Part shown: positions 5,182 to 35,606 of the stretch, piece after piece
Layout: the number at the start of each line of letters is the position of its first letter
How positions within the stretch are numbered: position 1 is the first letter of the stretch
Source: an uncultured Gammaproteobacteria bacterium
GTDB lineage: Bacteria > Patescibacteriota > Patescibacteriia > UBA2591 > UBA6264
Reading direction: 5' to 3'
Assembly (NCBI GenBank): GCA_964596735.1
Contig: CAZQVF010000006.1
Location: 24,152 to 88,151, forward strand
Length of the DNA stretch: 64,000 nt
The notes under the pieces: model-generated
Databases searched by the model: none
Told to the model about the DNA's origin: nothing
What the model saw: the letters and a program-made list of their open reading frames with translations, nothing else
Translations under genes and position numbers: made by a program

Positions 5182-6243
5182 ATGAGTTTTCTTGATAACA
5201 TTAAACAAATTCAAAAATTAGATAAATCTAATATGTCTGATTTTATTGCTGATTTACCAGAAAAATGCTCAAAAGCCTATACTTTAGCCCAAAAGATCAT
5301 TTTACCTCAAGACTATCAAGATATAAACATTGAAAATGTTGTTATCTGTGGCATGGGCGGTTCGGGAATTGGTGGAGAATTGGTTAAAAATATTATTGCT
5401 GATCAGCTTAAAAAACCTATTATTATCATCCGGGACTGGAATCCCCCTAAAATGATTAATAAAAATAGTTTAGTTTTTCTAGTGAGTTATTCAGGCAATA
5501 CTAAGGAAACATTATCTTGTGCAGAAATAGCCCTTCGGGCAAAAGCTAAAATTTTTGTCATTACTCAGGGCGGAGAATTAAAAAGATTTGCTCAAAAAAA
5601 TAAATTACCTATTTTTAATTTTCAATATAAAACGCCTCCTCGAGCCAGTTTAGGTTATCTTTTAATGCCTATTTTGATTGTTTTAGAAAAAAGTAAACTT
5701 ATTAACCTCAAAAAGCTACAAATACCTCACAATTTAAAAATATTAAAAGAATTTAACCAGCTCTTCTATCCTCAAACGTCAACTGAAAAAAACATTGCCA
5801 AACATTTAGCCTATTTTGTCTTTGATCACCTGCCTATTGTTATTGCCCCGACAAATCTTTCTGGAGTGGCTAGGCGTTGGAAAACACAATTTGCCGAAAA
5901 TGGCAAAAATTTTTCTTTCTTTGAAACTGAACCAGCCATTTTTCATAATTTTATTGAAAGCAGGTTTCCCCAACGCTTAAAAGATGATTTTGCTTTTTTA
6001 ATCTTAGAAAATCTTAAAAAACAAACAAAATCTAAAAAATCTTTAAAAGAATTTGAAAAGCTTTTAGAGGAACAATGTATTTGTTGGGAAAAAATTCCTC
6101 AATTTGGCAAAAATATCTTCACCCAGATACTCTCTTTGGTTTTACTTGGTGATTGGATTAGTTTTTATCTAGCCATGCTCAATCAGGTAGACCCGACACC
6201 TGTACAACAAATTGAAGCAATAAAAAGAAGCTCAAAAAAATAA
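5182..6243 (+). CDS. bifunctional phosphoglucose/phosphomannose isomerase (SIS domain)
   Basis: CGMGGSGIGGE SIS motif, about 350 aa, archaeal-type PGI/PMI architecture. Confidence 0.6.
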   Translation: MSFLDNIKQIQKLDKSNMSDFIADLPEKCSKAYTLAQKIILPQDYQDINIENVVICGMGGSGIGGELVKNIIADQLKKPIIIIRDWNPPKMINKNSLVFLVSYSGNTKETLSCAEIALRAKAKIFVITQGGELKRFAQKNKLPIFNFQYKTPPRASLGYLLMPILIVLEKSKLINLKKLQIPHNLKILKEFNQLFYPQTSTEKNIAKHLAYFVFDHLPIVIAPTNLSGVARRWKTQFAENGKNFSFFETEPAIFHNFIESRFPQRLKDDFAFLILENLKKQTKSKKSLKEFEKLLEEQCICWEKIPQFGKNIFTQILSLVLLGDWISFYLAMLNQVDPTPVQQIEAIKRSSKK

Positions 6244-6246
6244 ATA

Positions 6247-7926
6247 ATGTTGAATATTTTGTTTGTTAAAATTAAAAAAAACTGGCAATGGTTAGGTTAT
6301 TTTTTTATTTTTGCCCTGGGTTTTATTGTTTTTCTCTACCTTCTTATTCCCCCGGGGATTCTTTGTCCAGATAGTTTTTATCACACTAAGATGGCTTTGA
6401 TGATAAAGGATCAAGGCCTGATTCAAGATTTTCCCTGGACTCAATTTACTACCTATAAAGACCTGTTTGTTGATCATCATTTTGTCTATCATTTATTTTT
6501 AATTCCCTTTCTTAGTTTGCCCACCCCAGATAATCTGGATACTTTTTCAGCAGAACTTGACCCTTTAATTAAGGCTAAACTAGGGACTGCATTTTTTGCT
6601 GCCCTGGTTTTTTTGTTTATTTATTGGCTTTGTCGACGCTTAAAAATAAAGCTGCCTTTTGTTTGGACTTTATCTGGATTTTTGGTTTCTTATTTTATCC
6701 TTCGCCTTTCCCTTATCAGGGCCCCAGCTTTATCTTTAATTCTTCTTATTCTTGGCTTTTATTTTATTTTAAAAAAGAAGTATTTAGGACTATTCTTTGT
6801 TTGTTTCTTTTATGTCTGGACTCATGGCACCTGGCCTTTAATATTAATTGTCGCTATTTTATATTGTCTATCTCAAACTGTTAAAAATTTAACTATCAAT
6901 TGGACTAATATATTTATTGAAAATAAAAAGAGGTTATTTCAAACCATTAAATACGCTTTTATTTACTTTTTTGAAAAAAGTAATGTAAAAATATTATCAA
7001 CCTGTATAATGGGTCTTTTCTTGGGCCTGGTTATCAACCCCTACTTTCCAAAAACACTGCCTTTTTACTGGTTTCAAACAATCAAAATCGGTGTTTTAAA
7101 TTATCAAAACAAAATTGGAGTAGGGGCTGAATGGTATTCTCCTGATCCCCAAATGCTTTTCTTTAGTGTTTTACCAATTCTTATCCTCTGGTTAATCTCT
7201 CTGGCCTGGTTTATTACTAAACAAAAAGGACAAAATTCTTCATCCTGGTTTTTCGTTTTTGTCTCTACTTTTTTTCTTCTCTATACATTAAAGGCGAGAC
7301 GTAACATTGAATATTTTGTCCCCTCAGCCATCTTTTTGAATGGACTCATTTTTACTCAAATAGCAAAAAAAATAAATTGGGGAGCTCTTAAAAAACATTT
7401 AAAAGAATTTTTTCAAGGACCAGACAATATTTTCTATTTTATCACTACGATTATTTCAAGTATTTTAGTAATCTTTTTTATTGGATTTTATCTTAATTTT
7501 AGTATTAAAAACCTTTTCCAATCTTATACTAATGAATCTCGTAGCTTAAATTCTCTGCAAATGGCTAGTCATTGGATAAAAACTAATGTCCCATCAGAGG
7601 AAATTATCTTTCAAAGTAATTGGGCAATCTTCCCTCATTTATTCTATTTTAATACTCAAAATTATTATATTAATGGTCTAGACCAAACCTTTATGTACGA
7701 AAAGGACAAAGAACTTTATCAAGACTGGCTAGATTTGGTTTCTTATCATGTTGATCCAAATCAAACGGCTCAAATCTTAAAAGAAAAATTCAAGGCTTCT
7801 TATGTTCTGGTTGACAAAAATGATGAACGATTTACTAGATTAATAGAAAAATCAAAATTTTTAAAACAAGTTTATAAAGACGACCAAGCCAGTATTTATC
7901 AAATAGATTTTAACTATGTCCATTAA
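6247..7926 (+). CDS. polytopic membrane protein, GT-C-like glycosyltransferase candidate
   Basis: More than 10 predicted TM helices across 559 aa, lying between GT2 polyprenyl-phosphate-sugar synthase-like genes. Confidence 0.35.
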   Translation: MLNILFVKIKKNWQWLGYFFIFALGFIVFLYLLIPPGILCPDSFYHTKMALMIKDQGLIQDFPWTQFTTYKDLFVDHHFVYHLFLIPFLSLPTPDNLDTFSAELDPLIKAKLGTAFFAALVFLFIYWLCRRLKIKLPFVWTLSGFLVSYFILRLSLIRAPALSLILLILGFYFILKKKYLGLFFVCFFYVWTHGTWPLILIVAILYCLSQTVKNLTINWTNIFIENKKRLFQTIKYAFIYFFEKSNVKILSTCIMGLFLGLVINPYFPKTLPFYWFQTIKIGVLNYQNKIGVGAEWYSPDPQMLFFSVLPILILWLISLAWFITKQKGQNSSSWFFVFVSTFFLLYTLKARRNIEYFVPSAIFLNGLIFTQIAKKINWGALKKHLKEFFQGPDNIFYFITTIISSILVIFFIGFYLNFSIKNLFQSYTNESRSLNSLQMASHWIKTNVPSEEIIFQSNWAIFPHLFYFNTQNYYINGLDQTFMYEKDKELYQDWLDLVSYHVDPNQTAQILKEKFKASYVLVDKNDERFTRLIEKSKFLKQVYKDDQASIYQIDFNYVH

Positions 7927-8677
7927 AGCCCCTGACTATAAAATTGTTGCGGTTCTTCCTGCTTACAACGCAGAAAAAACATTAAAAAAAACCTTACATG
8001 ACATTGATCAAAATTGGGTCGATGAGATTATTTTAGTTGATGATGCCAGCCAAGATAATACTGTAGACCTAAGTAAAAAACTTGGGTTAAAAACATTTAA
8101 ACACAATAAAAACTTAGGATATGGAGGAAATCAAAAAACTTGCTATGAACAAGCTTTAAAATTAAAGGCTGATATTATAATTATGATTCATCCTGATCAC
8201 CAATATGATCCTACTTATATTCCTCAAATTGTTCTTCCTATTATCCGAGGTAAGGCTGATGCTGTTTTTGGCTCACGAATAATGGTTAAAGGGTGGGCCC
8301 TAGAAGGAGGAATGCCTTTATGGAAATATTTAGCTAATATCTTCTTAACCAAGATAGAAAATCTTTTTCTGGGCTTAAAACTCACTGAATATCACTCTGG
8401 TTTTCGGGCTTATCATTCTAAAATTTTTAAAAATATCCCTTTTAAAAAATTTTCAGATGACTTTGTTTTCGATACTGAAATTATTGTTCAACTCAAAATT
8501 CACAAATTTAAAATTAGAGAAATTCCTATTACCACTCGCTATTTTAAAGACGCCTCTATGATTGGATTTAGAAGGGGCGCTCAATATGGAATGGATATTT
8601 TAAAAGTACTTTTTAATTTTACTTTATCACGACTAAATATAAAAAAAGATCCCCGTTTTAAAAAAAATGACAATTAA
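7916..8677 (+). CDS. GT2 glycosyltransferase (Dpm1/polyprenyl-phosphate sugar synthase-like)
   Basis: VLPAYNAEKTL ... DDASQDNT GT2 N-terminal motifs, about 250 aa. Confidence 0.8.
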   Translation: MSIKAPDYKIVAVLPAYNAEKTLKKTLHDIDQNWVDEIILVDDASQDNTVDLSKKLGLKTFKHNKNLGYGGNQKTCYEQALKLKADIIIMIHPDHQYDPTYIPQIVLPIIRGKADAVFGSRIMVKGWALEGGMPLWKYLANIFLTKIENLFLGLKLTEYHSGFRAYHSKIFKNIPFKKFSDDFVFDTEIIVQLKIHKFKIREIPITTRYFKDASMIGFRRGAQYGMDILKVLFNFTLSRLNIKKDPRFKKNDN

Positions 8678-10268
8678 ACAAATTAGACAAAATATAGATA
8701 AAAAAGAATGGTCATTTTTAGCCATCATTGCCTTTCTTTTAATTTTTATCACTTCTTTACCCTATGTTTATGGTTATTTAACTGCTCCAGAAGATACCTA
8801 TTTTTTAGCTGTTTCTGGTGTCAACCGTGGTGATTATGCTAATTATTTTTCCTATATTGAACAAACTAGAGATGGGCACTTATTATTTAAAGATCTTTAC
8901 ACTACAGAGCCGCAACCAAGAGTAATCCTTAATTTATTCTTCCTAGGGCTTGGTCTTTTTGCTAAATTTTTTAATCTTTCAGCTATTGCTATTTTTCAAA
9001 TTAGTAGAATTATCTTAATTCCTATCTTTGTTTTCATTTTTTATCTTTTTATTTCTCTTTTATTTAAAGAAAAATTAAAAAGGAAATTGGGATTAATCTT
9101 TATTTGTTTCTCGGCTGGATTAGGAGGTTTATTCTCTTTATTTCTTACCTTTCCTACTTTGCAAATACCAATAGATTTATGGATTCCTGAAGCATTTACT
9201 TTTTTAAGTTTATTTCTTAATCCTCTTTATATTTTTTCTTTTATATTAATAATCTTTGCGTTCTTTTTAATACTTTTAGCCAAGAAAAATGCTTCTTATA
9301 AATATAGTTTTTTAGCTGGGGTCTGCGGATTAATTCTTTTTCAAATTCATCCTTATGACATTCCTATTATTTTTCTAACTTTATTTATTTTTTGGATACT
9401 ATCAAGCATAGTAGAAAAACGTATCAATTGGAAACTTTTTAAACATTATTTGGTTTTTATCTTGGTTTCCTCGCCGTCAGTCATATACTATTTTTGGCTT
9501 TCCACAAGCCATTTTGTCACTGTAGAACGCCTTGCCCAAGCCTCCTCTCTTTTAATTACTCCATCAATTTTAGCTTTTATTTTAGGATATGGTTTTATTC
9601 TGCCTTTGACTTTAATTGGAATATATGTCTTTTTGAAAAAAAAATCTTCTTATCTTCCACTTTTGATAGCCTGGCTCATGGTCCATCTTGCCCTTCTTTG
9701 CCTTCCTTTACCCCTTCAAAGAAAAATGACAGAAGGATTACATATTATTCTTTGTGTTTTTGCTGTTGAAGGAATATGGCTTATTCATCAAAAATTTAAT
9801 TTATTAAAATATAAGTTTTTGTGGCTTGTTATTTTTATCTTTCTTTTTAATTTTTCAAATATCTTTATAATAAAAAGAGACATTAATTATTATAAGACTT
9901 CATATTTTTCTATCCCAAAAGAGTTAATCTCTTCTATGAAATGGCTAAGAATTAACTCCCCCAAAGAAGCAAATGTTATTAGTAATTCTGACATGATTAC
10001 CAACAACCTAATTCCTGCTTTTTCAGTAAGAAAAATTTATTTTGGTCATCGAATAGAAACTATTCAGGCGGCAAAAAAAGAAAAAGAGGTTTCTTGGTTT
10101 TTTGAAACAAATAAAAATGACGATGAAAAATATTCTTTTCTTCAAAAAGAAAAATTAGATTATGTTTTTATAAATAAAAAAGAAGAATATATTTTTCACC
10201 CTAGAGAAAAACCATATTTAAAAATTATCTTTGATAATAATACTGCTAGTATTTTTCAAGTTCTATAA
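8667..10268 (+). CDS. polytopic membrane protein, GT-C-like glycosyltransferase candidate
   Basis: Many TM helices in the N-terminal 400 aa followed by a soluble C-terminal domain, an ArnT/PMT-like layout. Confidence 0.35.
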   Translation: MTIKQIRQNIDKKEWSFLAIIAFLLIFITSLPYVYGYLTAPEDTYFLAVSGVNRGDYANYFSYIEQTRDGHLLFKDLYTTEPQPRVILNLFFLGLGLFAKFFNLSAIAIFQISRIILIPIFVFIFYLFISLLFKEKLKRKLGLIFICFSAGLGGLFSLFLTFPTLQIPIDLWIPEAFTFLSLFLNPLYIFSFILIIFAFFLILLAKKNASYKYSFLAGVCGLILFQIHPYDIPIIFLTLFIFWILSSIVEKRINWKLFKHYLVFILVSSPSVIYYFWLSTSHFVTVERLAQASSLLITPSILAFILGYGFILPLTLIGIYVFLKKKSSYLPLLIAWLMVHLALLCLPLPLQRKMTEGLHIILCVFAVEGIWLIHQKFNLLKYKFLWLVIFIFLFNFSNIFIIKRDINYYKTSYFSIPKELISSMKWLRINSPKEANVISNSDMITNNLIPAFSVRKIYFGHRIETIQAAKKEKEVSWFFETNKNDDEKYSFLQKEKLDYVFINKKEEYIFHPREKPYLKIIFDNNTASIFQVL

Positions 10269-10343
10269 TTAAAATACATTAATTTATATACAATGGAATT
10301 TAATTTCAAGGTTCCTAAGCGTAGCGAAGGGTTCTTATAATCT

Positions 10344-11063
10344 ATGAAAATTACAATCGCCATTCCGGCTTACAACGAAGAAAAAATCATTAGTCAAAAA
10401 ATTGACCAGCTTTTTAAGTTTTGCCAAGAACAATTATCAGATTATCAATGGTTAGTTGTTGTTGCTATTAATGGCTCAAAAGATAAAACATTAGAAATCG
10501 TCCAAGAAAAAAATAGAACATATTCTAACTTAGAATATGTTAACTTAGATGCCCTGGGTAAGGGCGGAGCAATTAGAAAGGCTTGGCAAACTCATCCCGG
10601 CGATATTAATATTTTTATGGATGCTGATCTCTCAACTGAACTAAAGTCAATCCATGAACTAATCAAAGCAATTAAAAAAGAAAACTATCAAATAGTTATT
10701 GGTTCTCGATATCAAAAACAAAGTCATTTAGAAAGATCCGTTATTCGTTCCCTTTTTACATATGCTTATAATCTAATCTTAAAATTATTTTTTAATCTCA
10801 AAATAACTGATGCTTCATGTGGATTTAAAGCTGTTTCTCGAGAAGTAGTAAAAAAAATTGTTCCTAAAATTAAAAACAATGACTTATTTTTTGACACAGA
10901 ACTTTTAATCCTGGCTCGTCAATCTAATTTTTCTATCAAAGAAATTCCTGTTACTTGGAGAGATGAGAATCAAAGAAAAACAAAAATCAAAATATTTAAA
11001 ACCTCTTTTGATTATTTTAAAGAGATTATTAAAATAAAAGTGCGCCTTAGAAAGACGCACTAG
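10344..11063 (+). CDS. GT2 glycosyltransferase (Dpm1-like)
   Basis: IAIPAYNEEKII N-terminus and DAD motif. Confidence 0.75.
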   Translation: MKITIAIPAYNEEKIISQKIDQLFKFCQEQLSDYQWLVVVAINGSKDKTLEIVQEKNRTYSNLEYVNLDALGKGGAIRKAWQTHPGDINIFMDADLSTELKSIHELIKAIKKENYQIVIGSRYQKQSHLERSVIRSLFTYAYNLILKLFFNLKITDASCGFKAVSREVVKKIVPKIKNNDLFFDTELLILARQSNFSIKEIPVTWRDENQRKTKIKIFKTSFDYFKEIIKIKVRLRKTH

Positions 11064-11089: not shown

Positions 11090-11512
11090 TTATTCAGGAA
11101 GGGGTTCACTTGTAGCCTCTTTGGTTACTCCGGATAGTCTTTCAACTACGAACTGAGAAATGGAATAAGAGAATATAACAATTATTAAACCAATCAAAGC
11201 TGATGACATTAGCTTTTTTGCTTTAGTTACCTGCTCGGCATTTCCGCCAGAAGTCATCCACATTATTCCGCCAGCAATCATTAAGACCACTAAGATTATT
11301 CCCATTAAGCCAAGGATAACTCCGATTATCCGACCAACAATTGCTGTTGGTTGAGTCTCTGATCCTAAACCAGCCACGTTTGCTGTTTGTTCCAATTCTC
11401 CAAGTTGAGCAAAAGCGACTTTTTTTTCTACTAAAAAACCGCTTAAAGCTAAGAGTAAAATTAATATTATTAAAACATAAACCACCTTCTCTTTCGAGTC
11501 GAGATGTTTCAT
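11090..11512 (-). CDS. secreted membrane-hairpin pilin-like protein (TrbC/VirB2-like T4SS pilin family candidate)
   Basis: Signal peptide followed by two hydrophobic helices around a conserved GGIMWMTSGGNAEQ..KAKKLM..ALIGLIIVI core that is shared with three neighbouring paralogs. Confidence 0.45.
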   Translation of the reverse strand: MKHLDSKEKVVYVLIILILLLALSGFLVEKKVAFAQLGELEQTANVAGLGSETQPTAIVGRIIGVILGLMGIILVVLMIAGGIMWMTSGGNAEQVTKAKKLMSSALIGLIIVIFSYSISQFVVERLSGVTKEATSEPLPE

Positions 11513-11531
11513 AATACTGTAATTAAAGATT

Positions 11532-11897
11532 CTAGGTTGTTACGCCTGATAACTTACCAATAACAAATGCAGCAATAGCGTAAGCGAGGATAACAATAAT
11601 TAAACCAATCAAAGCTGATCCCATCAATTTTTTAGCACTCTTAATTTTCTCTTCATTTCCTCCAGAGGTCATCCACTGGAAGCCACCAACAATAATTAAA
11701 ACAACTGCCACCAAACCAAGGAGACTTAAGACTATCTGAATTATCTTTCCAATAATTTCAGATAAACCAGCTGAACCATAACCTGCTCCTGTCTGAAAAT
11801 TGGTCAAATAATCATTCCCAAAATTTAATTGACCTAAAGCAATCGCTGGGAGTAAGAGTAAAGCGATGATAAGCCCTGGAACAATGTAATTTTTCAT
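11532..11897 (-). CDS. secreted membrane-hairpin pilin-like protein (paralog)
   Basis: Contains the GGFQWMTSGGNEEKIKSAKKLMGSALIGLIIVI core. Confidence 0.45.
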   Translation of the reverse strand: MKNYIVPGLIIALLLLPAIALGQLNFGNDYLTNFQTGAGYGSAGLSEIIGKIIQIVLSLLGLVAVVLIIVGGFQWMTSGGNEEKIKSAKKLMGSALIGLIIVILAYAIAAFVIGKLSGVTT

Positions 11898-12053
11898 TTT
11901 AAAACTCTTTTTCGCTTCTTAAACCCTCTTTTTTATGAAGCGAATATTTAATCAAACAACGACCTTGAATGACTATTTAATTATACTATTTAATTATTAA
12001 TTTCTATTCTAGAGGCAAATAAGGGATTCGTCAAGTTTGAAGTGTGGATATCT

Positions 12054-12419
12054 TTATTTGGTGCTAGACAAAAAAGCATTTAAAATAAAATCTAGAATGG
12101 CATAACTAAGGAAAACAAAAGCTAATCCAAAGATTGCCCAAACAAGTGTGTCTCTTCCTTTTTTAATTTTTTCTGCTGCTCCGGCTGAAGTCATCCAGGT
12201 TATTCCACCATAAATAAACATTACTAAAGCCAAAACGCCAACAAATCCTAATATATAGGCAATAATATCTCCCACTAAAACAGGGATGTCTCTTTTCCCC
12301 AAAGGATCATCTAGTTGAGGCATGTCTTCTTGGGCTTGAACAAAATTAGATAATAAAAAACATCCACTAATAATAAGGCTCACAACTAAAATGAAATAAA
12401 TTTTTGGTTTTTGTTTCAT
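12054..12419 (-). CDS. secreted membrane-hairpin pilin-like protein (paralog)
   Basis: Contains the GGITWMTSAGAAEKIKKG core. The start is more likely MKQKPK at 12419 than the track start at 12458, which overlaps the upstream gene. Confidence 0.45.
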   Translation of the reverse strand: MKQKPKIYFILVVSLIISGCFLLSNFVQAQEDMPQLDDPLGKRDIPVLVGDIIAYILGFVGVLALVMFIYGGITWMTSAGAAEKIKKGRDTLVWAIFGLAFVFLSYAILDFILNAFLSSTK

Positions 12420-12426
12420 ATAATAT

Positions 12427-13347
12427 TTATAGACAAGGATTAGTGATGACTCCAGCATCTCTTAAAATTTCTTTATAAGCATCTCTTGTACCCGAACCAA
12501 CCCTTCCGTCTACGCTCAAACAATAAGCATTAGGGCAGCCACCACTATTAGCTTGTTGAAATCTTGTTGTACAATCTCTTGTTGTCGAGCCAAACTTACC
12601 ATCTGGAGTTCCACAATCACATCCCCAGTTATTAAGTTTTTGTTGATATGTTAAAACTTCTGAAGACTGACATCCTTTATTTAGTCCTGTCCACGTACAA
12701 CCATAACACCAAGGCCGATTATCTGAAATATTATCAAGGAGAGGACAATCTGACCAGCCTTGATCTTCTGAAACTTCACTTGATTGAGGTAAATATTCTT
12801 CTGCACCAAAAGCTTCCATTACTACACGAACAATTGTAAAGGCAACTAAAACAATAATCAACCCAACAATTGCTCCCTTAATCATGTCTTTCCCTTTTTT
12901 AATTCTTTCGGCTGAACCGCCTGAGGTTATCCATATTATACCACCAATAACGAAAAATAACAAAGCAAAAACACCCAGAAACCCTAAAACGTTTCCTGCT
13001 ACATTAACTCCCATTAAAAGAAAATCATTTAAAACACAGTCTCCACAGCAAGAACAAACCGGATTACTAATAAAAAAACCTACATGACAATCTTCTACTT
13101 TGTTAGATCCTTGACAGATACAATCATAGACGCCTTCTGAGATTTTTCGACAACAGCTACACGCACTCCCTGAGAACATTCCACTCCCGCCTTTGCCGAT
13201 TTGTCTACAAAGACTGGAATTATATTCTCCACACTTAATTGTACACCATTGCTGACAAGCATTTTCTTGAGCCTGGACAGCTTTAGGCATAATCACTCCT
13301 AACAAACAAATAATTAGAATAATAAAAATTGTTTTTTTATAATTCAT
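12427..13347 (-). CDS. Cys-rich pilin-like fusion protein with C-terminal peptidoglycan-binding-like domain
   Basis: A signal peptide and about 18 Cys in the N-terminal 100 aa precede a GGIIWITSGGSAERIKKG pilin-like core. The C-terminus has DGKFGSTTRD..FQQ and VDGRVGSGTRDAY motifs like PG_binding_1. Confidence 0.45.
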   Translation of the reverse strand: MNYKKTIFIILIICLLGVIMPKAVQAQENACQQWCTIKCGEYNSSLCRQIGKGGSGMFSGSACSCCRKISEGVYDCICQGSNKVEDCHVGFFISNPVCSCCGDCVLNDFLLMGVNVAGNVLGFLGVFALLFFVIGGIIWITSGGSAERIKKGKDMIKGAIVGLIIVLVAFTIVRVVMEAFGAEEYLPQSSEVSEDQGWSDCPLLDNISDNRPWCYGCTWTGLNKGCQSSEVLTYQQKLNNWGCDCGTPDGKFGSTTRDCTTRFQQANSGGCPNAYCLSVDGRVGSGTRDAYKEILRDAGVITNPCL

Positions 13348-13352
13348 TTTCC

Positions 13353-14732
13353 TTAATAGGTTAAATTAACTTTTTGAGCACAATATTTAATCGCTTCCTC
13401 AATAGTTTTTTCTCCTGTTAAAGTATCTTTAATCATTTCTTTAAAGGCTTCCTCCACCAAAGAATAATTTTTTCCTTGATACCAAGTCTGAGCTGTTAAT
13501 ACGCCTCTGGCAAATGGAGCTAAATCAAAATCTTCTAATTGTCTTTGAATTAATGCTCTATGGGCTGTTGGTCTCTTTGTCCTTTCAATAAAAGTCTGAG
13601 TATTTTGGTTCTCTATAGCATAAAGTAAAAAACTCCAAGCTTCGGAAGGATGTTTTGTTTTTTTAGAAACTGTTTCTAACCAATACTGGGCGTAATTAAC
13701 CTCTTTAAGTGAACTGCTGATTTGTGGAACCTTGGCAATATCAAAATTTAATTTTGGTGCCTGAGATTTAATAATGGGTAAATAATTTGAGTAACCTAAA
13801 ATAAATCCAACCCTGCCTTGAATAAAAGCGTCTAATGAATTTATCATTTGTTCATTCCAGGTATAAATTCCTTGATAAGGATTGGCAAAGCCAGTATAAA
13901 AACGTATTGCTTCTATTCCAGGAAAATAACCTGGATCATCAATCAGCGCTTTATCAAAAATGACCTGATCTCTCTGATTAACCATTGATGTCCCGTTTTG
14001 CAACATTAATAAGGAAAGTATGTCTGTTAAATTGGCTACATTTTCTGCTGTTCCCATGGCTACTCCAGATTGAATAAAATTTCCATATCTATCTTGCAAT
14101 GTTAAAGCGCTAACACTATTAACAAATTCTTGCCAAGTTTGAGGAGGATTAATTATTCCAGCGTTATTTAAAAGTTCTTTGTTATAATAAAGAACTAATA
14201 AATCCAGCCCTAAGGGTAAGCCATAAATTTTCTCATCTAAAATGACCCCATCTGATACTGCTTCAACAAATATTTCTCTTAGCTCCCTTAAATTTGGTGC
14301 TTTTTTTCTTTCCTCAACAACTTTTGGCTCTTTTTTTATTGTCCCAGCCATTACTTGTCGTGCTAAAACAATTTCTTGGGACAAATTAACAGGTAGGATT
14401 TTTGTTTGATATTTTCCTAACCAAGTATTAGGAATGGAAAAAATGTCTGGCCCCCTGTCTTCGGCCCAAGCTTCTAAAAGAGCCTGTTCATATTCTTCTT
14501 CACGAATTGTTTTATAGGTAATAGAAATATGAGGATATAAAGTTTGCCAACCATCAATAATTGCTGCAAAAGCATCTTGGCTGTCTTGGGTTCGCCAATA
14601 AACCAAATTTATTGGCTTAATTTTTTCTGCTATCTTCTCACTGGCTGTACACTTACATCCCAGGCCAGAGGTAATTAAAAAAACACCTATTAAGAGTCCT
14701 ATTAGGATTTTTGTTTTTCTCTTTCTCGCCAT
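13353..14732 (-). CDS. ABC transporter extracellular solute-binding lipoprotein (family 1)
   Basis: Lipobox-like LGCKC after the signal peptide and SBP_bac_1-like length and composition. Confidence 0.6.
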   Translation of the reverse strand: MARKRKTKILIGLLIGVFLITSGLGCKCTASEKIAEKIKPINLVYWRTQDSQDAFAAIIDGWQTLYPHISITYKTIREEEYEQALLEAWAEDRGPDIFSIPNTWLGKYQTKILPVNLSQEIVLARQVMAGTIKKEPKVVEERKKAPNLRELREIFVEAVSDGVILDEKIYGLPLGLDLLVLYYNKELLNNAGIINPPQTWQEFVNSVSALTLQDRYGNFIQSGVAMGTAENVANLTDILSLLMLQNGTSMVNQRDQVIFDKALIDDPGYFPGIEAIRFYTGFANPYQGIYTWNEQMINSLDAFIQGRVGFILGYSNYLPIIKSQAPKLNFDIAKVPQISSSLKEVNYAQYWLETVSKKTKHPSEAWSFLLYAIENQNTQTFIERTKRPTAHRALIQRQLEDFDLAPFARGVLTAQTWYQGKNYSLVEEAFKEMIKDTLTGEKTIEEAIKYCAQKVNLTY

Positions 14733-27784: not shown

Positions 27785-27901
27785 TTATTTTTAGTTTTTA
27801 AGAGAAAAAAGGGGGTTGCCCTTGTTTTCTTGTAGTCTCAGTCTATAAGTATATAATTAAAAAATCGACTAGCAAGGGGGCTTATCCACAGGTAAATCCA
27901 A

Positions 27902-29206
27902 TTATAAGCCTAATGTTAACCTTCCTTTTATCCCTTGTTCTGTTTGAATAATTAATAAATTTTTTAAAGGTAATTCACTGCCTTGAAAAAATATACCTTT
28001 TTCAATTTCTTGGATTTGAAATCCAGAGAAAAGCTTATTGGGAGCGTTAACAATTTCTTCAAATAAAGAAATTTTATTAGCAATAAAATTCTGTTCCTTG
28101 TCTTGCCAGACAATAAAACCCGCTTGTTCTTGATTTTCAAAAAAATCCATTGGCCAGTAATGTACTAATGTCTGATTGAATTCTTCTGTTTTAAAATTAA
28201 ACTTATTTGAATCAACAATTAATTCTGTAAATTTCGTTTGATCAGGCAATAACACTTGTTTTTTAATTGGTTTTTGAATAGCCAAGGCTTGTTTAATTTT
28301 CTGTAATAAAAAATCAGTTGAGTTGATTTGAGGTAAAACAAAAACAAAACCTTGATTAGAATTATTATCCGAGATAAAATCGTCAAAAGAAAATAAATTT
28401 TCCTTGTAATCTTGATTGGACAAATTTATAGAAAAAAATAAATTTTCAGCATTTAAAATAGAATAAAGACTGATTCCTGCTAAATCGTTCCCTGTCTGGC
28501 TGATTTCATTTTCTTTTTTTATTTCTTCTTGTAAATCTTTAAAGCTAATATAACCACTTGCCCAAACTGAAAACCCTGGTCCTGAAAATAAAGAATCTTT
28601 TTTATTAAGAAGGCTTTGAGACAGAAAAAAATCTGAAGATTGAAAATCGTTTAAAAAAGACTGAGGAGAAACTACCCAAACATGTGTTGTTAATTCTTGC
28701 ACATGAAAACCCTTTAATGATTTAATTAACAAAGAGGGATTGGACCATCTTTTCAACTTTAACAAAAGAACTATTTCCATTTTTGATAAAAGCCCTTTAT
28801 TGTTTTCGTGGGTTCGTTCCTGGGGAAATAAAACTAAGGCAATTTCATCTATAAATCCTATATTTTCTCCTTTAAATGTATTCTTAATTAAGGCCAATCT
28901 GGGATCATTTTCCGGAAGACCAGCTAAAATTTGTTGTATTTTTAAATCATTAAGCCACTGATTGCCCAAACAACCAGTTCGTCTAGCTTGATTCAAATCT
29001 AAATGTAAATAAAGAAAACTATTTTTAGGAACGAATTCGATTAAATTATCTGGCTGCCAAAAAAAATAAATAGACAAAGCAAAGATAACTAAAATAATAC
29101 CTAAAAACAATATTGCGTTTCGTGACCTAAGTCTCATAAAAGCATAATAAAATAAAGCGAAGGGCTTGTCAATCTTTCTAAAACCCTTATAATAAGATGT
29201 ATGCAA
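27902..29206 (-). CDS. hypothetical membrane-anchored protein
   Basis: Long ORF with an N-terminal TM helix; no family recognised. Confidence 0.3.
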   Translation of the reverse strand: MHTSYYKGFRKIDKPFALFYYAFMRLRSRNAILFLGIILVIFALSIYFFWQPDNLIEFVPKNSFLYLHLDLNQARRTGCLGNQWLNDLKIQQILAGLPENDPRLALIKNTFKGENIGFIDEIALVLFPQERTHENNKGLLSKMEIVLLLKLKRWSNPSLLIKSLKGFHVQELTTHVWVVSPQSFLNDFQSSDFFLSQSLLNKKDSLFSGPGFSVWASGYISFKDLQEEIKKENEISQTGNDLAGISLYSILNAENLFFSINLSNQDYKENLFSFDDFISDNNSNQGFVFVLPQINSTDFLLQKIKQALAIQKPIKKQVLLPDQTKFTELIVDSNKFNFKTEEFNQTLVHYWPMDFFENQEQAGFIVWQDKEQNFIANKISLFEEIVNAPNKLFSGFQIQEIEKGIFFQGSELPLKNLLIIQTEQGIKGRLTLGL

Positions 29207-30280
29207 GATACAACAAGTAAAAAAGACTATAGTCAGTTAATAAAATCCCTACCTAAACTTGGTGACCTTATTGAGGGGACAGTTATTGAAATTGGTCGTA
29301 ATGAAATCTATCTAGATATTAACGGTCTAACCACTGGGGTTGTCAGAGGACCTGAACTTTTTGACGAATCTGGAGAATTTTCTAACCTAAAAAAGAAAGA
29401 TAAAATTTCCGCTACAGTCGTTGAATTAGAAAATGAAAAAGGATTGGTTGAATTATCTTTTCGTCATGCTAGTCACAAAAAGGCTTGGAACAGGCTTGAA
29501 GATATCGCTAAAGGCGAAAATTCTTTATTAATTAAAGTTATCGAAGCAAACAAGGGAGGTTTAATTGTCCGAAGTGGTAAAATCCAAGGATTTTTACCTG
29601 TTTCACAGTTAAAACCCGAACATTATCCTCGAGTCGACGACGGTGATAAAAATAAAATTTTAGAAAAATTAAAAAGCTTTATTAACAAGGAAATGCTTGT
29701 CAAAATTATTACCATTGACGAAAAAAATGGAAAGCTAATTGTTTCTGAAAAAGAAGTCGGACCAAGTAAGAAAAAACTTATACATAAAAATTACAAAATT
29801 GGTGATGTTATTAAAGGAAAAATTAGTGGATTAGTTGACTTTGGCATTTTTGTAACTTTTGACAAAAATCAAGAAGGCCTGGTTCATATTTCTGAATTAG
29901 CCTGGCAAAGAATTGACCATCCTCAAGATATAGTTAAAGTCGGAGAAACAGTAAAAGCAGAAATTATTGGTATTACCGATGATGGTAAAATTTCCCTTTC
30001 CATTAGAAGATTGTTAAAAGACCCCTGGAGTGTGGTCAAGAAAAAATATAAAATTGACCAAAAAGTTAAAGGGAAGGTTTTAAAGATTAACCCCTTTGGT
30101 CTTTTTGTTGAACTAGACAAAGACATTCACGGATTAGCCCATATCTCAGAATTATCAAAAGCTCCAATTAGAGATATTTCTAAGGTCGCCAAAGAAGGTG
30201 ATATATTGGATTTTAAAGTTGTTTCAATTGAGCCAGAAGACCATCGTCTTGGACTATCATTGATTGAAAGTAAAAAATAG
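29201..30280 (+). CDS. rpsA: 30S ribosomal protein S1 (short form, four S1 domains)
   Basis: Repeated S1 OB-fold blocks (GDVIKGKISGLVDFGIFV, GLVHISEL, GLAHISEL). Confidence 0.7.
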   Translation: MQDTTSKKDYSQLIKSLPKLGDLIEGTVIEIGRNEIYLDINGLTTGVVRGPELFDESGEFSNLKKKDKISATVVELENEKGLVELSFRHASHKKAWNRLEDIAKGENSLLIKVIEANKGGLIVRSGKIQGFLPVSQLKPEHYPRVDDGDKNKILEKLKSFINKEMLVKIITIDEKNGKLIVSEKEVGPSKKKLIHKNYKIGDVIKGKISGLVDFGIFVTFDKNQEGLVHISELAWQRIDHPQDIVKVGETVKAEIIGITDDGKISLSIRRLLKDPWSVVKKKYKIDQKVKGKVLKINPFGLFVELDKDIHGLAHISELSKAPIRDISKVAKEGDILDFKVVSIEPEDHRLGLSLIESKK

Positions 30281-30283
30281 ATT

Positions 30284-32107
30284 ATGAAATCATTGATTAA
30301 AAATTTTCTTATTTTCTTAATCATTTTTTTGATTATCTCTGGAATCTTTAGTCTCTTGGGTAGTCAAAGCAAAAGAATTCAAGAAATCAGTTTAAACGAA
30401 TTGGTTCAAGAAATTCAAGACGAATTAGTTCAAAAAATTACCATAGAAGAAAATCGTTTAAACATTCTCTTAATTGATCAAACACAACAAATTACATTTA
30501 AAGAAGAGAATGAATCTCTTGTTGAACTATTAAATAATTATGGTGTTTCTCCTGAAAAACTTTCCAAATTATCTTTGGTGGTTAAAAGTATGAGAGGAAG
30601 AAACACTTTTTTTAATATTATTTTTCCTCTTCTTATTCCCTTACTTTTATTAATCGGCTTGATTTATTTCTTTTCCAAGCAAGTTAAAGGGGCTGGGATG
30701 CAAGCTTTTAAGTTTGGAGAAAGTAAAGCAAGAAAAGTTAATCCTCAAGATAAAAAAGTAAAAACCACCTTTAAAGACGTGGCTGGCGTTCAAGAAGCTA
30801 AAGAAGAATTAAAAGAAATCGTTGACTTTTTAAAGAATCCTAAAAAATATATTCTTCTTGGAGCAAAAATCCCCAAAGGTGTTTTATTGGTTGGTCCTCC
30901 TGGCTGTGGAAAAACTCTTTTAGCGCGAGCTGTAGCTGGAGAGGCTAATACTCCCTTCTTCCATATTTCTGGTTCAGAATTTATTGAGCTCTTTGTTGGT
31001 GTTGGAGCCTCACGCGTCCGAGATCTTTTTACTAAAGCAAAAAAGAATCTTCCGGCTATTGTTTTTGTGGACGAATTAGACGCTGTTGGTCGTCAAAGAG
31101 GAGCGGGGTTAGGAGGTTCACATGATGAAAGAGAACAAACCTTAAACCAAATCTTAGTTGAACTTGATGGCTTTGAACCAAATATTGGTCTAATTGTCTT
31201 AGCGGCTACTAATCGTCCAGATATTTTAGATCCAGCGCTATTAAGACCAGGCCGTTTTGACCGAAAAGTAATCCTTAATTTACCAGACATTAAGGGTCGT
31301 GAATCAATTTTAAAAATTCATGCGAGGGGAAAACCACTCGACCCAAAAGTTAATCTTAAAAAAATTGCTGAGAGAACCCCCGGATTCACTGGAGCTGACT
31401 TAGAAAACCTTTTAAATGAAGCTTCAATTCTATCCGCTAAAACAAATAAGAAAAAAATTGGTTTAAAAGAAATATTAGAAAGCGTTGAAAGGGTTCTTTT
31501 AGGACCTGAAAGAAAAAGCCATATTCTCTCAAAAAAAGAAAAAGAAATTATCGCATTTCATGAAGCAGGGCACGCTATTGTTAGTCATGTTTTACCAGGA
31601 TGTGATCCTGTACAAAAAATTTCTATTATCTCCCGGGGACAAGCGGCCGGTTATACCTTAAGCATTCCTGAACAAGAAAAATTTCTTAAAACAAAGTCTG
31701 AGTTTTTAGATAATCTTTCTGCTCTATTAGGAGGATACGTGGCTGAAGAAGAAACCTTTGGACAAGTGACAACAGGGGCGGCTAATGATCTTCGCCGGGC
31801 AACTCAACTGTCTCGTAAACTAGTAACCGAATATGGGATGAGCAAAATATTAGGACCAAGAACTTTTGGCGAAAAAGAAGAAATGATTTTTCTTGGTCGT
31901 GAAATTGCTGAAAGAAGGGACTATTCTGAAGAATTTGCCCAAATTATTGACAAAGAAGTTTCTAGTTTCATTAAGCTCTGCTATGATAAGGCCAAAAACA
32001 TTCTTCAAAAAAATAAAACAAAACTAGAAGAAGTTGCTCAACTTTTATTAAAAAAGGAAACCTTAGAAAAAGAGACCTTTCTTAAAATAATGACTAAAAA
32101 GAAATAA
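30284..32107 (+). CDS. ftsH: ATP-dependent zinc metalloprotease FtsH
   Basis: GPPGCGKT Walker A, AAA second region of homology (SRH), HEAGHA zinc motif. Confidence 0.9.
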
Positions 32108-32116
32108 ATTATTAAT

Positions 32117-33031
32117 ATGAAACCTGAACTAAAAACCTTGTTTAAAAATTCTTGGAATTTTGTTTGGCATCATCCATTTCTTTGGCTCTTTGGCTTCTTT
32201 GCTGCTTTTTTTACTAACAATGAAGTCCATTTAATTATTGCTAATTTCCAACGAATAAATAAGTGGGTAGATCAATTAATCATTTTTAAATCTTTTCAAA
32301 TACAGTTTCAAAATCTTTTAAATACTTTCACTCCTTTACAATTTCTTAATATAAAAACTAATTATCATTTAATCTTCGCTGTCATTGTTGTTCTTTTGTT
32401 TTTTTACTTATCCTTTCTTTCACAAATTTCCATTATCTTATCAGTAAAAAATCGTCATTTTAAAGAAAAATTGTCTTTCAATAAAATGTGGAAAAAAAGT
32501 AAAAATTTTCTTTGGCCTATTGTTGGAATTTATTTAATTATTTTCCTGCTTATTTATGGCTTCTTGTCTTTATTGGGCCTTTCTTTTTTCTATCAAATAC
32601 CTATTCCTTTTGTTGTTTATGTTTTTTTGTTTATAATTTTAGGCTTTCTCATTTCTTTTATCTCTAGATTTACTATTTGTTTCATAGTCTTAGAAAAAAA
32701 GAAATTCTTTAACGCAATCAAAATGGGAACTATATTCTTCTTTAAAAATTGGTTGACCACAATTAAAATTTCTATTTATTTTTGTTTAATCACTATTTTA
32801 ATCGGATTAGGGCTTTTCTTAGTTTCTGTAGGAACAGCCGTTCCCTTCCTAATCCTTGTTGACCTGTTTTTACGTTTAAATTTTGTTATTGGTTTTTGGT
32901 TAATTCTCGTCTTTTGGACAATTCTTATTCTTACTTTCTTCCTATTATTAAGTTCTATTTTTTCTGCCTGGCAATTCTCTGTTTGGACTTCATTTTTCAT
33001 GCGACATCGTAATTCCTCTGAAAAAGAATAG
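32117..33031 (+). CDS. hypothetical polytopic membrane protein
   Basis: Multiple TM helices; no family recognised. Confidence 0.3.
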   Translation: MKPELKTLFKNSWNFVWHHPFLWLFGFFAAFFTNNEVHLIIANFQRINKWVDQLIIFKSFQIQFQNLLNTFTPLQFLNIKTNYHLIFAVIVVLLFFYLSFLSQISIILSVKNRHFKEKLSFNKMWKKSKNFLWPIVGIYLIIFLLIYGFLSLLGLSFFYQIPIPFVVYVFLFIILGFLISFISRFTICFIVLEKKKFFNAIKMGTIFFFKNWLTTIKISIYFCLITILIGLGLFLVSVGTAVPFLILVDLFLRLNFVIGFWLILVFWTILILTFFLLLSSIFSAWQFSVWTSFFMRHRNSSEKE

Positions 33032-33247
33032 GAAAAGATGTGGATAAAGGACAATCTTTCTTATGTATTTAAATTTTATACAAGGATAACTTAATCTATT
33101 AACATTTATTCAACACATTATCCCATTCTTTCCCATATAATCAATATTCTTAAACGTCTTTTTAAAGGCTTTTTACTAAAATCTCCTCTTTTCTCCACTT
33201 AGTTATTACTATATACTATATATAAATATATAATATAATAATATAAT

Positions 33248-34366: not shown

Positions 34367-34406
34367 CTTCCTACTTTTTAAAAAAAGTAGGATTAATGAG
34401 GTTTTT

Positions 34407-35472: not shown

Positions 35473-35572
35473 TAATTTATGCAGATCAATAGTAGAAAAA
35501 ATTATTTAGCTTGGTGGACTTGTTACGATAAAGGCAAGATCCAATTTTAGTATTACTAAATTTTATATAAAG

Positions 35573-35606
35573 CGCCTTGGATCTTGCCAGGGCGTTTTTT
35601 GTTTTT
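35573..35606 (+). terminator. rho-independent terminator
   Basis: 8-bp stem CGCCTTGG/CCAGGGCG with a 6-nt loop, followed by TTTTTTGTTTTTG. Confidence 0.6.

What the first reader, a model, noticed from the sequence alone, without database searches (positions are those of the whole stretch)
11090..13347. Tandem array of four pilin-like membrane-hairpin paralogs, one fused to a Cys-rich module and a peptidoglycan-binding-like domain
Four consecutive minus-strand genes each encode a signal peptide followed by two hydrophobic helices around an almost invariant GG(I/F)xW(M/I)TSGG(N/S)xExxxK(A/G)KK...ALIGLIIV core. That is the topology of TrbC/VirB2-type T4SS pilins, a family abundant in CPR and Gram-positive conjugative systems. 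They are not type IV prepilins: there is no G|F(T/S)LIE motif. The fourth paralog adds an N-terminal module with about 18 Cys and a C-terminal region with two DG.FG..TR.A..FQ PG_binding_1-like motifs. No VirB4/VirD4 ATPase is in the window. pilT lies 25 kb away.
Basis: partly seen in the sequence, partly recalled or inferred. Interest (0 to 1): 0.6.

Follow-up and report, generated by a model that had tools for sequence, protein, structure and literature searches.

The report
Binding-protein-led VirB2-like pilin gene cassette
Four neighbouring genes in an ultrasmall (Patescibacteria/CPR) bacterium encode conjugation-type (VirB2-like) pilins, a known kind of array, but here it is a conserved ordered cassette that always follows a solute-binding lipoprotein gene and starts with a pilin carrying cysteine-rich and cell-wall-binding domains.

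Summary
Four minus-strand genes (11090-13347) each encode a Sec signal peptide and a two-helix hairpin. All four pass Pfam's T4SS_pilin (PF18895) cut-off, and the fourth also passes PG_binding_1. They are not type IV prepilins and not holins. Tandem VirB2-like pilin arrays are already described in Patescibacteria (441 arrays; an essential one in Southlakia), so the array itself is not new.

I found no report of the cassette's architecture:
- The four paralogs are old orthologous groups kept in a fixed order in 16+ species-level genomes.
- An SBP_bac_1 lipoprotein gene (13353-14732) directly precedes the pilins in 67 of 70 independently sampled loci (34 of 36 clusters at 70% identity). No ABC permease lies nearby.
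- The lead pilin has Cys-rich ectodomains: 24 mature Cys, all on the predicted outer side.
- A conserved promoter, an AAGGTCG motif and a covarying leader hairpin precede the last two pilin genes, and a terminator follows them.

No VirB4, VirB6 or VirD4 lies within the 84 kb I could inspect, and the rest of the genome was out of reach. Most likely reading: subunits of a T4SS-type pilus, with two abundant and two specialised subunits. The SBP would be a surface partner. Function is inferred, not shown.

The parts
13353..14732 (-). SBP_bac_1/SBP_bac_8 solute-binding protein, probable lipoprotein (conserved SG.GC near the N-terminus). It is the conserved first gene of the cassette and ends 6 bp before pil4.
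   Evidence: Pfam 80.9 bits against 26. G23 and C26 are nearly invariant in 26 homologs. It lies directly upstream of a pilin gene in 20 of 20 genome loci and in 67 of 70 metagenome loci chosen by SBP homology alone. No ABC permease or ATPase is adjacent in any annotated locus.
12427..13347 (-). pil4, the decorated lead pilin (306 aa): signal peptide, Cys-rich N-module, VirB2-like hairpin, and a Cys-containing tail with a PG_binding_1 domain.
   Evidence: PF18895 32.0 bits against 26.6 and PF01471 33.1 bits against 23. AF2 model has mean pLDDT 72, with beta-rich residues 47-88, helices 106-141 and 146-179, and a tail at pLDDT 85-92. Ortholog alignment A2.
13033..13266 (-). Cys-rich N-terminal ectodomain of pil4 (aa 28-105, 14 Cys). 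It ends in the invariant C-x-C...C...C-x-CCGDC motif immediately before TM1.
   Evidence: Invariant C76, C78, C87, C98, C100, C101 and C104 in 20 homologs. Only 22 hits at E<=1e-3 among 1.84 billion representative proteins, nearly all pil4-type proteins of 178-344 aa.
12820..12990 (-). Pilin core of pil4 (aa 120-176, the PF18895 match).
   Evidence: The hairpin of the model matches the Aeropyrum pernix conjugation pilin 8dfu (prob 0.96, TMt 0.68, E 0.9).
12478..12666 (-). PG_binding_1 domain of pil4 (aa 228-290), predicted extracytoplasmic.
   Evidence: Pfam. Foldseek matches 3bkh, 6tci and 4c2g at prob 0.99-1.00. PHROG endolysin families match only this stretch, with no catalytic domain.
12054..12419 (-). 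pil3 (121 aa from the favoured start), the paralog closest to classical TrbC/VirB2.
   Evidence: PF18895 31.6-31.9 bits. TrbC E 0.0094 for the window protein; 16 of 19 orthologs hit TrbC.
12006..12034 (-). Sigma-70-like promoter TTGACG-17-TAGAAT in the pil3-pil2 gap.
   Evidence: A promoter with >=10/12 matches (mostly TTGACA-17-TAxxxT) lies in the orthologous gap of 12 of 16 genomes. The site count in the window region alone is not above chance; the support comes from positional conservation.
11959..11966 (-). Conserved leader motif AAGGTCGT.
   Evidence: AGGTCG occurs exactly once in this gap in 16 of 16 genomes and in 18 further metagenome gaps of the same clade. Background is 0.096 per kb. 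It occurs once in the whole window.
11911..11944 (-). Leader hairpin (TTCGCTTC...GAAGCGAA) with a purine-rich loop, 14-47 nt upstream of the pil2 ATG.
   Evidence: RNAfold -15.2 kcal/mol, z -2.9. RNAalifold gives 6 pairs, 5 with compensatory changes. 89% of cells are paired against 46-62% in slid controls, covariation is 0.588 against <=0.31, and 0 of 500 shuffles reach it.
11532..11897 (-). pil2 (121 aa), the most conserved paralog and the putative major subunit.
   Evidence: PF18895 40.4 bits. Orthologs are 47-80% identical. AF2 model has mean pLDDT 78, with hairpin helices 45-76 and 82-120 at about 90.
11090..11512 (-). pil1 (140 aa), the last gene and a fast-evolving paralog.
   Evidence: PF18895 30.1 bits. 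Orthologs are 39-56% identical.
11039..11061 (-). Terminator-like GC-rich hairpin plus T-run, 29 nt after the pil1 stop codon.
   Evidence: 10-bp stem, 5 GC pairs, TTTATTTT tail.

Best explanation
This is a chromosomal cassette of four non-interchangeable VirB2/TrbC-family (T4SS_pilin) genes in a Patescibacteria genome. It is led by a solute-binding lipoprotein gene.

Shown:
- All four proteins belong to the T4SS_pilin family.
- Each has a Sec signal peptide and a two-helix hairpin with a positively charged loop.
- The gene order SBP, pil4, pil3, gap, pil2, pil1 is conserved across deep divergence.
- A conserved promoter, leader motif and hairpin precede pil2, and a terminator follows pil1.

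Inferred mechanism:
- The precursors are inserted by Sec and cleaved by signal peptidase I. They then sit in the membrane with both ends outside and the K/R-rich loop inside.
- A VirB4-type ATPase encoded elsewhere extracts them and polymerises them into a conjugative-type pilus or short conduit.
- pil2 and pil1 have their own strong promoter and a stabilising 5' hairpin, so they are the abundant building blocks.
- pil3 and pil4 are low-copy specialised subunits.
- In pil4 the disulfide-rich N-module and the PG_binding_1 tail both project outward. This fits a base subunit that fixes the filament in the cell's own wall, or a tip subunit that grips the peptidoglycan of a host cell.
- The SBP lipoprotein, which has no ABC permease, is a surface partner: a glycan-binding adhesin or a ligand receptor working with the filament.
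For: - Family membership: PF18895 above cut-off for all four, and TrbC/VirB2 hits in 16 of 19 pil3 orthologs.
- Topology: hydropathy and loop charge and the AF2 hairpins.
- Cys placement: all 24 mature Cys of pil4 lie in the predicted outside segments, in even numbers of 14 and 10.
- PG_binding_1: supported by HMM and by fold.
- Fixed order: each paralog has its own ortholog at the same position in 16 species-level genomes.
- SBP linkage: 67 of 70 loci, or 34 of 36 clusters at 70% identity, reaching Kuenenbacteria.
- Internal promoter, motif and hairpin, and the terminator.
- Literature: VirB2-like pilin arrays are common in Patescibacteria. In the published dataset (3,035 genomes, 2,474 virB4 genes), 1,948 VirB4-carrying assemblies have VirB2-like pilins, and the pilin gene lies near virB4 in only 1,135 of them (PMC12102498). 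The Southlakia pilin array is essential (PMC10633639; PMC12857230).
Against: - No VirB4, VirB6, VirB3/PrgI, TrsD or VirD4 was found in the 84 kb inspected (record 37.5-121 kb of a 315 kb contig). None was found in about 100 related loci either. T4SS-dependent assembly therefore rests on a phylum-wide prior.
- Fold comparison cannot separate a VirB2 hairpin from other helical hairpins. The pil2 model's best hits are ATP synthase subunit c and F-BAR domains at E>1.
- The major/minor assignment rests only on promoter position.
- The SBP link is genetic only. The upstream UGPase-SBP adjacency (9 of 20 genomes) shows that some synteny in this region is simply inherited.
- No pilus has ever been seen for this family in a monoderm.
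Confidence: 0.55

Rival explanations
1. The four hairpin proteins never leave the membrane. Together with the SBP lipoprotein they form a T4SS-independent envelope complex, for example a binding-protein-dependent uptake or signalling device in which small two-helix subunits replace a classical permease, or a membrane platform that holds the SBP and the wall together.
For: The SBP has no ABC permease or ATPase beside it in any locus, yet it is almost always followed by pilin-family genes. No T4SS gene lies near the cassette in about 100 loci. In many lineages the SBP is followed by a single pilin gene. The role of the Patescibacteria T4SS and its pilins is stated to be unknown (PMC11665869).
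Against: Sequence homology is to pilus-forming VirB2/TrbC proteins. In Southlakia the same family sits inside the T4SS locus, without an SBP. No two-helix protein family is known to act as an SBP-dependent permease. The weak Pfam hits to TctB and other membrane families are far below their cut-offs.
Confidence: 0.2
2. The array is a set of interchangeable pilin variants kept for antigenic or host-range variation, as proposed for Bartonella and Anaplasma VirB2 paralogs and suggested for Patescibacteria arrays.
For: The paralogs are divergent (33-48% identity), similar to the 25% mean and 54% maximum reported for Patescibacteria arrays. pil1 and pil4 evolve faster than the neighbouring housekeeping genes. 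The copy number of the pil2 type varies between 1 and 2.
Against: Each paralog has a one-to-one ortholog at the same position in 16+ genomes that have diverged to about 50% SBP identity. Architecture differs systematically: the lead gene is always decorated. The internal promoter always separates pil4/pil3 from pil2/pil1. This is the pattern of distinct structural roles, not of a variable repertoire.
Confidence: 0.1
3. The proteins are holin-like or lysis and cell-wall-remodelling factors. pil4 would be a membrane-anchored peptidoglycan-binding protein acting with wall hydrolases, and not a pilus subunit.
For: pil4 carries PG_binding_1, a domain typical of endolysins and spore cortex-lytic enzymes. 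Small two-helix membrane proteins can be holins. Pfam gives a weak Phage_holin_3_6 hit (E 0.071).
Against: There are no holin hits in PHROGs for any of the four. The Pfam holin score is 13.6 against a 28.4 cut-off. There is no catalytic domain in pil4 and no endolysin next to the cassette. Cleavable Sec signal peptides and T4SS_pilin membership fit pilins. About half of the pil4 orthologs lack the PG-binding tail.
Confidence: 0.03

Closest known systems
VirB2-like pilin arrays of Patescibacteria (Quinonero-Coronel et al. 2025, PMC12102498; the essential array SEML1_0014-0019 of Ca. Southlakia epibionticum, Wang et al. 2023, PMC10633639)
   Same: Same Pfam family (PF18895, some PF04956) and the same phylum. 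Tandem divergent paralogs of about 100-185 aa, chromosomal, with no relaxase nearby. SEML1_0015 also has an N-terminal extension before the pilin domain.
   Different: The Southlakia array lies inside the T4SS locus and has no SBP. Here the cassette is at least 10-37 kb from any T4SS gene, is led by an SBP lipoprotein, has four orthologous types in fixed order, and starts with a pilin fused to a Cys-rich module and PG_binding_1. [quoted passage not shown] In the passages I read, it does not mention an SBP partner, fusions or an internal promoter.
Classical conjugative pilins VirB2 (Ti plasmid), TrbC (RP4) and TraA (F); archaeal CedA1/TedC conjugation pilins (8dfu)
   Same: Signal peptide plus a two-helix hairpin with a basic loop. 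There are HMM hits to TrbC in orthologs, and a fold match of the pil4 hairpin to 8dfu.
   Different: Those pilins are single major genes inside a T4SS operon in diderms or archaea, with VirB5 as a separate tip protein. None is fused to a PG-binding domain or linked to an SBP. Cyclisation or acetylation of the mature pilin could not be assessed here.
Mycoplasma ICE Mbov_0395 pilin-like conjugal transfer protein (NCBIfam NF045849)
   Same: It is the best NCBIfam match for all four (E 1e-8 to 7e-5, covering nearly the whole 80-residue model). Both are monoderm contexts.
   Different: Scores (22-38 bits) are below the 40-bit equivalog cut-off. That family lies on an integrative conjugative element beside its transfer genes.
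PG_binding_1 domains of phage endolysins (phiKZ gp144), SleB and CtpB
   Same: The pil4 tail matches by HMM and by fold.
   Different: In those proteins the domain targets an enzyme to the wall. Here it is fused to a pilin hairpin with no catalytic domain, and it carries extra Cys residues plus a Cys-containing insertion.
SBP-dependent carbohydrate ABC importers (CUT1; MalE, GanS, UgpB)
   Same: The upstream protein is a bona fide SBP_bac_1 member, with weak similarity to GanS and MalE.
   Different: No permease or ATPase genes accompany it in any locus. Its constant neighbour is a pilin gene.

Membership tests
T4SS_pilin (PF18895) / TrbC-VirB2 (PF04956) pilin superfamily | Profile-HMM score at or above the curated gathering threshold | tested here: met
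   PF18895 scores of 30.1, 40.4, 31.6 and 32.0 bits against 26.6 for the four proteins. The window proteins are below the cut-off for PF04956 (pil3 16.6 against 27.9), but 16 of 19 pil3 orthologs match it at E<=1e-3, best 1.1e-10.
T4SS_pilin (PF18895) / TrbC-VirB2 (PF04956) pilin superfamily | Cleavable signal peptide followed by two hydrophobic helices joined by a short basic loop | tested here: met
   Three hydrophobic segments per protein, and loops with 3-5 K/R against 1-2 D/E. AF2 helices 106-141/146-179 in pil4 and 45-76/82-120 in pil2. No SignalP or TMHMM was available.
T4SS_pilin (PF18895) / TrbC-VirB2 (PF04956) pilin superfamily | Fold similarity to solved conjugative pilins | tested here: inconclusive
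T4SS_pilin (PF18895) / TrbC-VirB2 (PF04956) pilin superfamily | Encoded with, or in a genome with, VirB4 and other T4SS machinery | tested here: inconclusive
   None was found in 84 kb around the array. The remaining roughly 230 kb of the contig and the rest of the genome could not be read.
T4SS_pilin (PF18895) / TrbC-VirB2 (PF04956) pilin superfamily | Polymerises into an extracellular pilus | not testable with these tools
   This needs microscopy or biochemistry. It has not yet been shown for any Patescibacteria pilin (PMC12857230).
Patescibacteria VirB2 pilin array (PMC12102498) | Two or more VirB2-like genes in tandem, or separated by one non-pilin gene, in a Patescibacteria genome | tested here: met
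   Four consecutive genes. Homologs and neighbours are labelled Patescibacteria, Parcubacteria or Kuenenbacteria by their sources.
Patescibacteria VirB2 pilin array (PMC12102498) | Low identity among the copies of an array (mean 25%, maximum 54%) | tested here: met
   29-52% in the global alignment and 33-48% in local alignments.
PG_binding_1 (PF01471) | HMM score above the cut-off and the three-helix PG_binding_1 fold | tested here: met
   33.1 bits against 23 at aa 228-290. Foldseek matches 3bkh, 6tci and 4c2g at prob 0.99-1.00 with rmsd 1.4-3.1 A. Actual peptidoglycan binding was not tested.
Type IV (T4P/T2SS) prepilins | Class III signal peptide with G|F(T/S)LxE and a single N-terminal hydrophobic helix | tested here: not met
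   The N-termini read MKHLDSKEK..., MKNYIVPG..., MKQKPKIY... and MNYKKTIF..., with AxA-type sites. There are no N_methyl or T2SS pilin hits in Pfam.
Phage holins | Match to a holin family profile | tested here: not met
   No holin family in PHROGs at E<=0.1. Pfam Phage_holin_3_6 scores 13.6 bits against 28.4.
SBP-dependent ABC importer (for the upstream gene) | SBP gene accompanied by permease and ATPase genes | tested here: not met
   The SBP domain is met (80.9 bits). No BPD_transp or ABC_tran importer genes are adjacent in the window or in annotated related loci.

The most novel reading that the evidence does not exclude
The solute-binding lipoprotein and the VirB2-like pilins form one functional organelle. 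In this reading it is a binding-protein-coupled filament or conduit that captures host-derived glycans or other solutes, or docks onto host wall polymers through the SBP and the PG-binding lead pilin. The 'T4SS pilins' of many Patescibacteria would then serve host-dependent nutrient acquisition or attachment rather than conjugation, possibly without a canonical T4SS.
Probability: 0.15. Interest if true: 0.85.

Novelty: new variant of a known kind. Interest (0 to 1): 0.55.

Why it matters
The T4SS and its pilin array are essential for the epibiotic life of the one Patescibacterium studied genetically, yet reviews state that the role of the system is completely unknown. They also note that a pilus made by a monoderm would be unprecedented. 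This cassette gives three concrete handles on that question:
- A near-obligate genetic partner, an orphan sugar-type binding lipoprotein, points to ligand or host-surface recognition.
- A lead pilin with a peptidoglycan-binding domain points to a wall contact.
- The fixed four-type order with an internal promoter predicts major and minor subunits.

Each of these can be tested by phylogenetic profiling, structure prediction of complexes, metatranscriptomics or biochemistry.

Tried and rejected
- VirB4 in this genome. I walked 10 kb beyond both window ends and scanned unannotated ORFs with Pfam. I looked for extra pilin paralogs on the same 315 kb contig through the pil2 homolog list. I searched the 2025 paper's supplement for genomes that share the cassette. 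I screened large Walker-A ORFs in 80 related loci; these are SMC-like and AAA+ proteins, not VirB4. None of this settled the question.
- Holin reading. Rejected.
- Type IV prepilin reading. Rejected from the N-terminal sequences.
- Known RNA family in the pil3-pil2 gap. Rfam at gathering threshold finds only four tRNAs in the window.
- Promoter scan on the window alone. The number of sites is not above chance (22 against 21.3 expected). Only cross-genome conservation gives the gap promoter weight.
- Weak Pfam hits to TctB, Yip1, DUF6112 and similar families. All are below their cut-offs and are treated as hydrophobic-composition noise.
- My first strict filter gave 62 of 70 loci with a pilin after the SBP. 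Inspection showed five of the eight 'exceptions' were overlapping-ORF artefacts, so the corrected figure is 67 of 70.
Full report
**1. What is there**

The region 11090-13347 holds four consecutive minus-strand ORFs of 140, 121, 134 and 306 aa. I call them pil1 to pil4, numbered from the 3' end of the array. For pil3, the gene callers behind the public assemblies use the internal ATG, giving 12054-12419 and 121 aa. That start gives a typical MKQKPK signal-peptide N-terminus shared by its orthologs.

Each protein has three hydrophobic segments:
- The first is an N-terminal signal segment ending in an AxA-like site.
- The other two are long helices joined by a short loop with 3-5 Lys/Arg and 1-2 Asp/Glu.

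AlphaFold models show the same helical hairpin (pil4 helices 106-141 and 146-179; pil2 helices 45-76 and 82-120 at pLDDT about 90). The core GGxxWxTS(G/A)G..E is invariant among the four.

**2. Family**

All four exceed the Pfam gathering score for T4SS_pilin PF18895 (30.1, 40.4, 31.6 and 32.0 bits against 26.6). The best NCBIfam match for all four is the Mycoplasma ICE pilin-like protein NF045849, just under its cut-off. The window's pil3 hits the classical TrbC/VirB2 model only weakly (E 0.0094). Of its 19 orthologs, however, 16 hit that model, with a best E of 1.1e-10. This ties the cassette directly to VirB2.

They are not type IV prepilins, because they have Sec-type N-termini and no G|FTLxE. 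They are not holins either: PHROGs gives no holin hit, and the Pfam holin score is far below its cut-off.

Fold comparison adds little. The pil4 hairpin matches the Aeropyrum pernix conjugation pilin 8dfu (prob 0.96, but E 0.9). The pil2 model matches only generic hairpins.

**3. The fused paralog**

pil4 has 25 Cys: one in the signal peptide, 14 in residues 28-105 and 10 in residues 180-306. The N-module ends in the motif C-x-C...C...C-x-CCGDC, which abuts the first pilin helix and is invariant in 20 homologs.

The tail contains one PG_binding_1 domain (aa 228-290, 33.1 bits against 23). The modelled tail is confident (pLDDT 85-92) and matches the PG_binding_1 domains of phiKZ gp144, SleB and CtpB (prob 0.99-1.00). 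PHROG endolysin families match only this stretch, and there is no catalytic domain.

With VirB2 topology (ends out, loop in), both decorations lie outside the membrane. This agrees with every mature Cys lying in those segments, in even numbers.

The N-module is rare. It gives 22 hits at E<=1e-3 among 1.84 billion representative proteins, nearly all pil4-type proteins. About half of the pil4 homologs carry the PG-binding tail.

**4. Where it sits**

The window is part of a 315 kb metagenome contig from a Patescibacteria genome. The evidence is low G+C and homologs named Patescibacteria, Parcubacteria or Kuenenbacteria. The neighbours are housekeeping genes: PBP1a, TyrRS, UDP-glucose pyrophosphorylase and glycosyltransferases.

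No VirB4, VirB6, PrgI, TrsD or VirD4 is present in the window or within 10 kb beyond each end. No further pilin gene is present either. I could not read the rest of the contig.

**5. What is already known**

Quinonero-Coronel et al. 2025 (PMC12102498) found 2,474 virB4 genes in a set of 3,035 Patescibacteria genomes. VirB2-like pilins occurred in 1,948 VirB4-carrying assemblies, near virB4 in only 1,135 of them. They also counted 441 arrays of 2-11 divergent pilin genes.

Wang et al. 2023 (PMC10633639) showed that the six-gene array SEML1_0014-0019 of Southlakia is essential. Reviews call the role of this T4SS completely unknown (PMC11665869). They also note that a pilus in a monoderm would be unique (PMC12857230).

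The array as such is therefore a new member of a known kind.

**6. What I found beyond that**

(a) Fixed order. In 16 species-level genomes the order is SBP, pil4-type, pil3-type, a larger gap, pil2-type (one or two copies), then pil1-type. Each window paralog is most similar to the gene at the same position. Against the L011 orthologs, for example, identity is 76% for the SBP, 44% for pil4, 66% for pil3, 80% for pil2 and 48% for pil1. These are old, specialised paralogs, not a shuffling repertoire.

(b) SBP linkage.
- An SBP_bac_1 protein (13353-14732; Pfam 80.9 bits) ends 6 bp before pil4. It has a conserved SG.GC lipobox-like site.
- It precedes the pilins in all 20 genome loci examined. 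This includes distant ones where the SBP is only 47-55% identical and the outer flanks differ (Kuenenbacteria L031, L032 and L033).
- As an independent test I scanned metagenomes with an SBP alignment only and scored the ORFs with a pilin HMM. Of 70 loci with enough downstream sequence, 62 passed a strict filter. Five of the eight failures were overlap artefacts, giving 67 of 70.
- After removing redundancy, the figure is 57 of 59 clusters at 90% identity and 34 of 36 at 70%.
- No ABC permease accompanies the SBP in any annotated locus.
- Southlakia's array has no SBP, and I found no paper linking an SBP to these pilins.

(c) Internal expression signal.
- The pil3-pil2 gap carries a TTGACA-17-TAxxxT-type promoter in most genomes.
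- It has a motif AAGGTCG exactly once in 16 of 16 genomes, and in 18 more metagenome loci of the same clade, against a background of 0.096 per kb.
- A hairpin whose stem sequence changes but stays paired follows the motif. It is 89% paired against 46-62% in slid controls, and 5 of 6 pairs show compensatory changes.
- A terminator-like hairpin follows pil1.

**7. Most likely mechanism**

Shown: family, topology, domain content, conserved order and linkage, and conserved cis elements.

Inferred:
- Sec insertion and signal-peptidase cleavage of the precursors.
- A membrane pool of hairpins.
- Extraction and polymerisation by a VirB4-type machine encoded elsewhere.
- pil2 and pil1 as abundant subunits made from their own promoter.
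- pil3 and pil4 as low-copy subunits.
- pil4 placing a disulfide-rich module and a peptidoglycan-binding domain on the outside, at the base (own wall) or the tip (host wall).
- The orphan SBP acting as a surface adhesin or receptor with the filament.

I put this at about 0.55.

The main rival (about 0.2) is a T4SS-independent membrane complex of the SBP and the hairpin proteins. Interchangeable antigenic variants (about 0.1) are disfavoured by the one-to-one orthology. A holin or lysis role (about 0.03) failed its tests.

**8. Verdict**

The array is a known kind. The SBP-led, ordered cassette with a decorated lead pilin is a variant I could not find described. It offers testable leads on what these essential pilins do. 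The decisive missing piece is whether this genome encodes a VirB4.

Noticed in passing
window 11898-12053 (minus strand); motif 11959-11966, hairpin 11911-11944: The conserved 5' leader upstream of pil2 has an AAGGTCG motif followed by a hairpin with covarying stems and a purine-rich, Shine-Dalgarno-like loop (GGGAGGG, AAGAGGG, AGGAGG). There is no Rfam match. It could be an mRNA-stabilising 5' stem-loop or a binding site for a regulator (CsrA-like GGA-in-loop sites come to mind, but this was not tested).
   Followed up: partly
window 5182-11063 (plus strand), convergent with the pilin cassette: This block holds two GT2 glycosyltransferases (7916-8677 and 10344-11063) interleaved with two large polytopic membrane proteins that have no Pfam family (6247-7926, with a weak EpsG hit; and 8667-10268). 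It stays next to the pilin cassette in many related genomes (L011, L013, L018, L024, L027, L028, L033; L011 adds a PMT_2 protein). It may be a surface or protein glycosylation system, and could act on the pilins or the SBP.
   Followed up: no
window about 27900-34400: This is the probable replication origin region. Cumulative GC skew reaches its minimum near 28 kb, gene orientation switches from minus to plus at about 29.2 kb, and dnaN lies at 33248-34366. No DnaA Pfam hit was found anywhere in the window. The ORFs flanking the switch (27902-29206 and 32117-33031) have no family. The pilin cassette lies about 16 kb from this point, and the 2025 paper notes T4SS genes near the origin in some Patescibacteria.
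   Followed up: partly
L080 7331-9842 and L101 6898-8960 (metagenome loci): In a more distant lineage (SBP about 45-48% identical), the SBP and lead pilin are followed by three conserved unknown genes of about 220, 183 and 127 aa before further pilin genes. These are candidate extra components of the same module.
   Followed up: no
L061, L062, L064, L099 (metagenome loci): The SBP is followed by very long arrays of nine pilin-HMM ORFs. Several of these ORFs are 190-337 aa long and carry 10-27 Cys, so multiple decorated pilins can occur in one cassette.
   Followed up: no
window 43800-45462: A GT4-type glycosyltransferase appears split into two overlapping ORFs (43800-44327 Glyco_transf_4 and 44302-44883 Glycos_transf_1). 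It is followed on the other strand by a free-standing LAGLIDADG homing-endonuclease-like ORF (44971-45462, a weak Pfam hit).
   Followed up: no
window 35200-36772: A radical-SAM protein with a weak SPASM domain (35678-36772; gene callers use a shorter 273-aa form) sits next to a small Trp_repressor/HTH protein (35200-35472). It may be a peptide-maturation pair.
   Followed up: no
L013 8628-9987: In 'Ca. Parcubacteria bacterium 4484_255' the cassette's SBP gene is split into two overlapping ORFs (187 and 269 aa). This is either a frameshift or sequencing error, or a decaying SBP, although the pilin genes remain intact.
   Followed up: no
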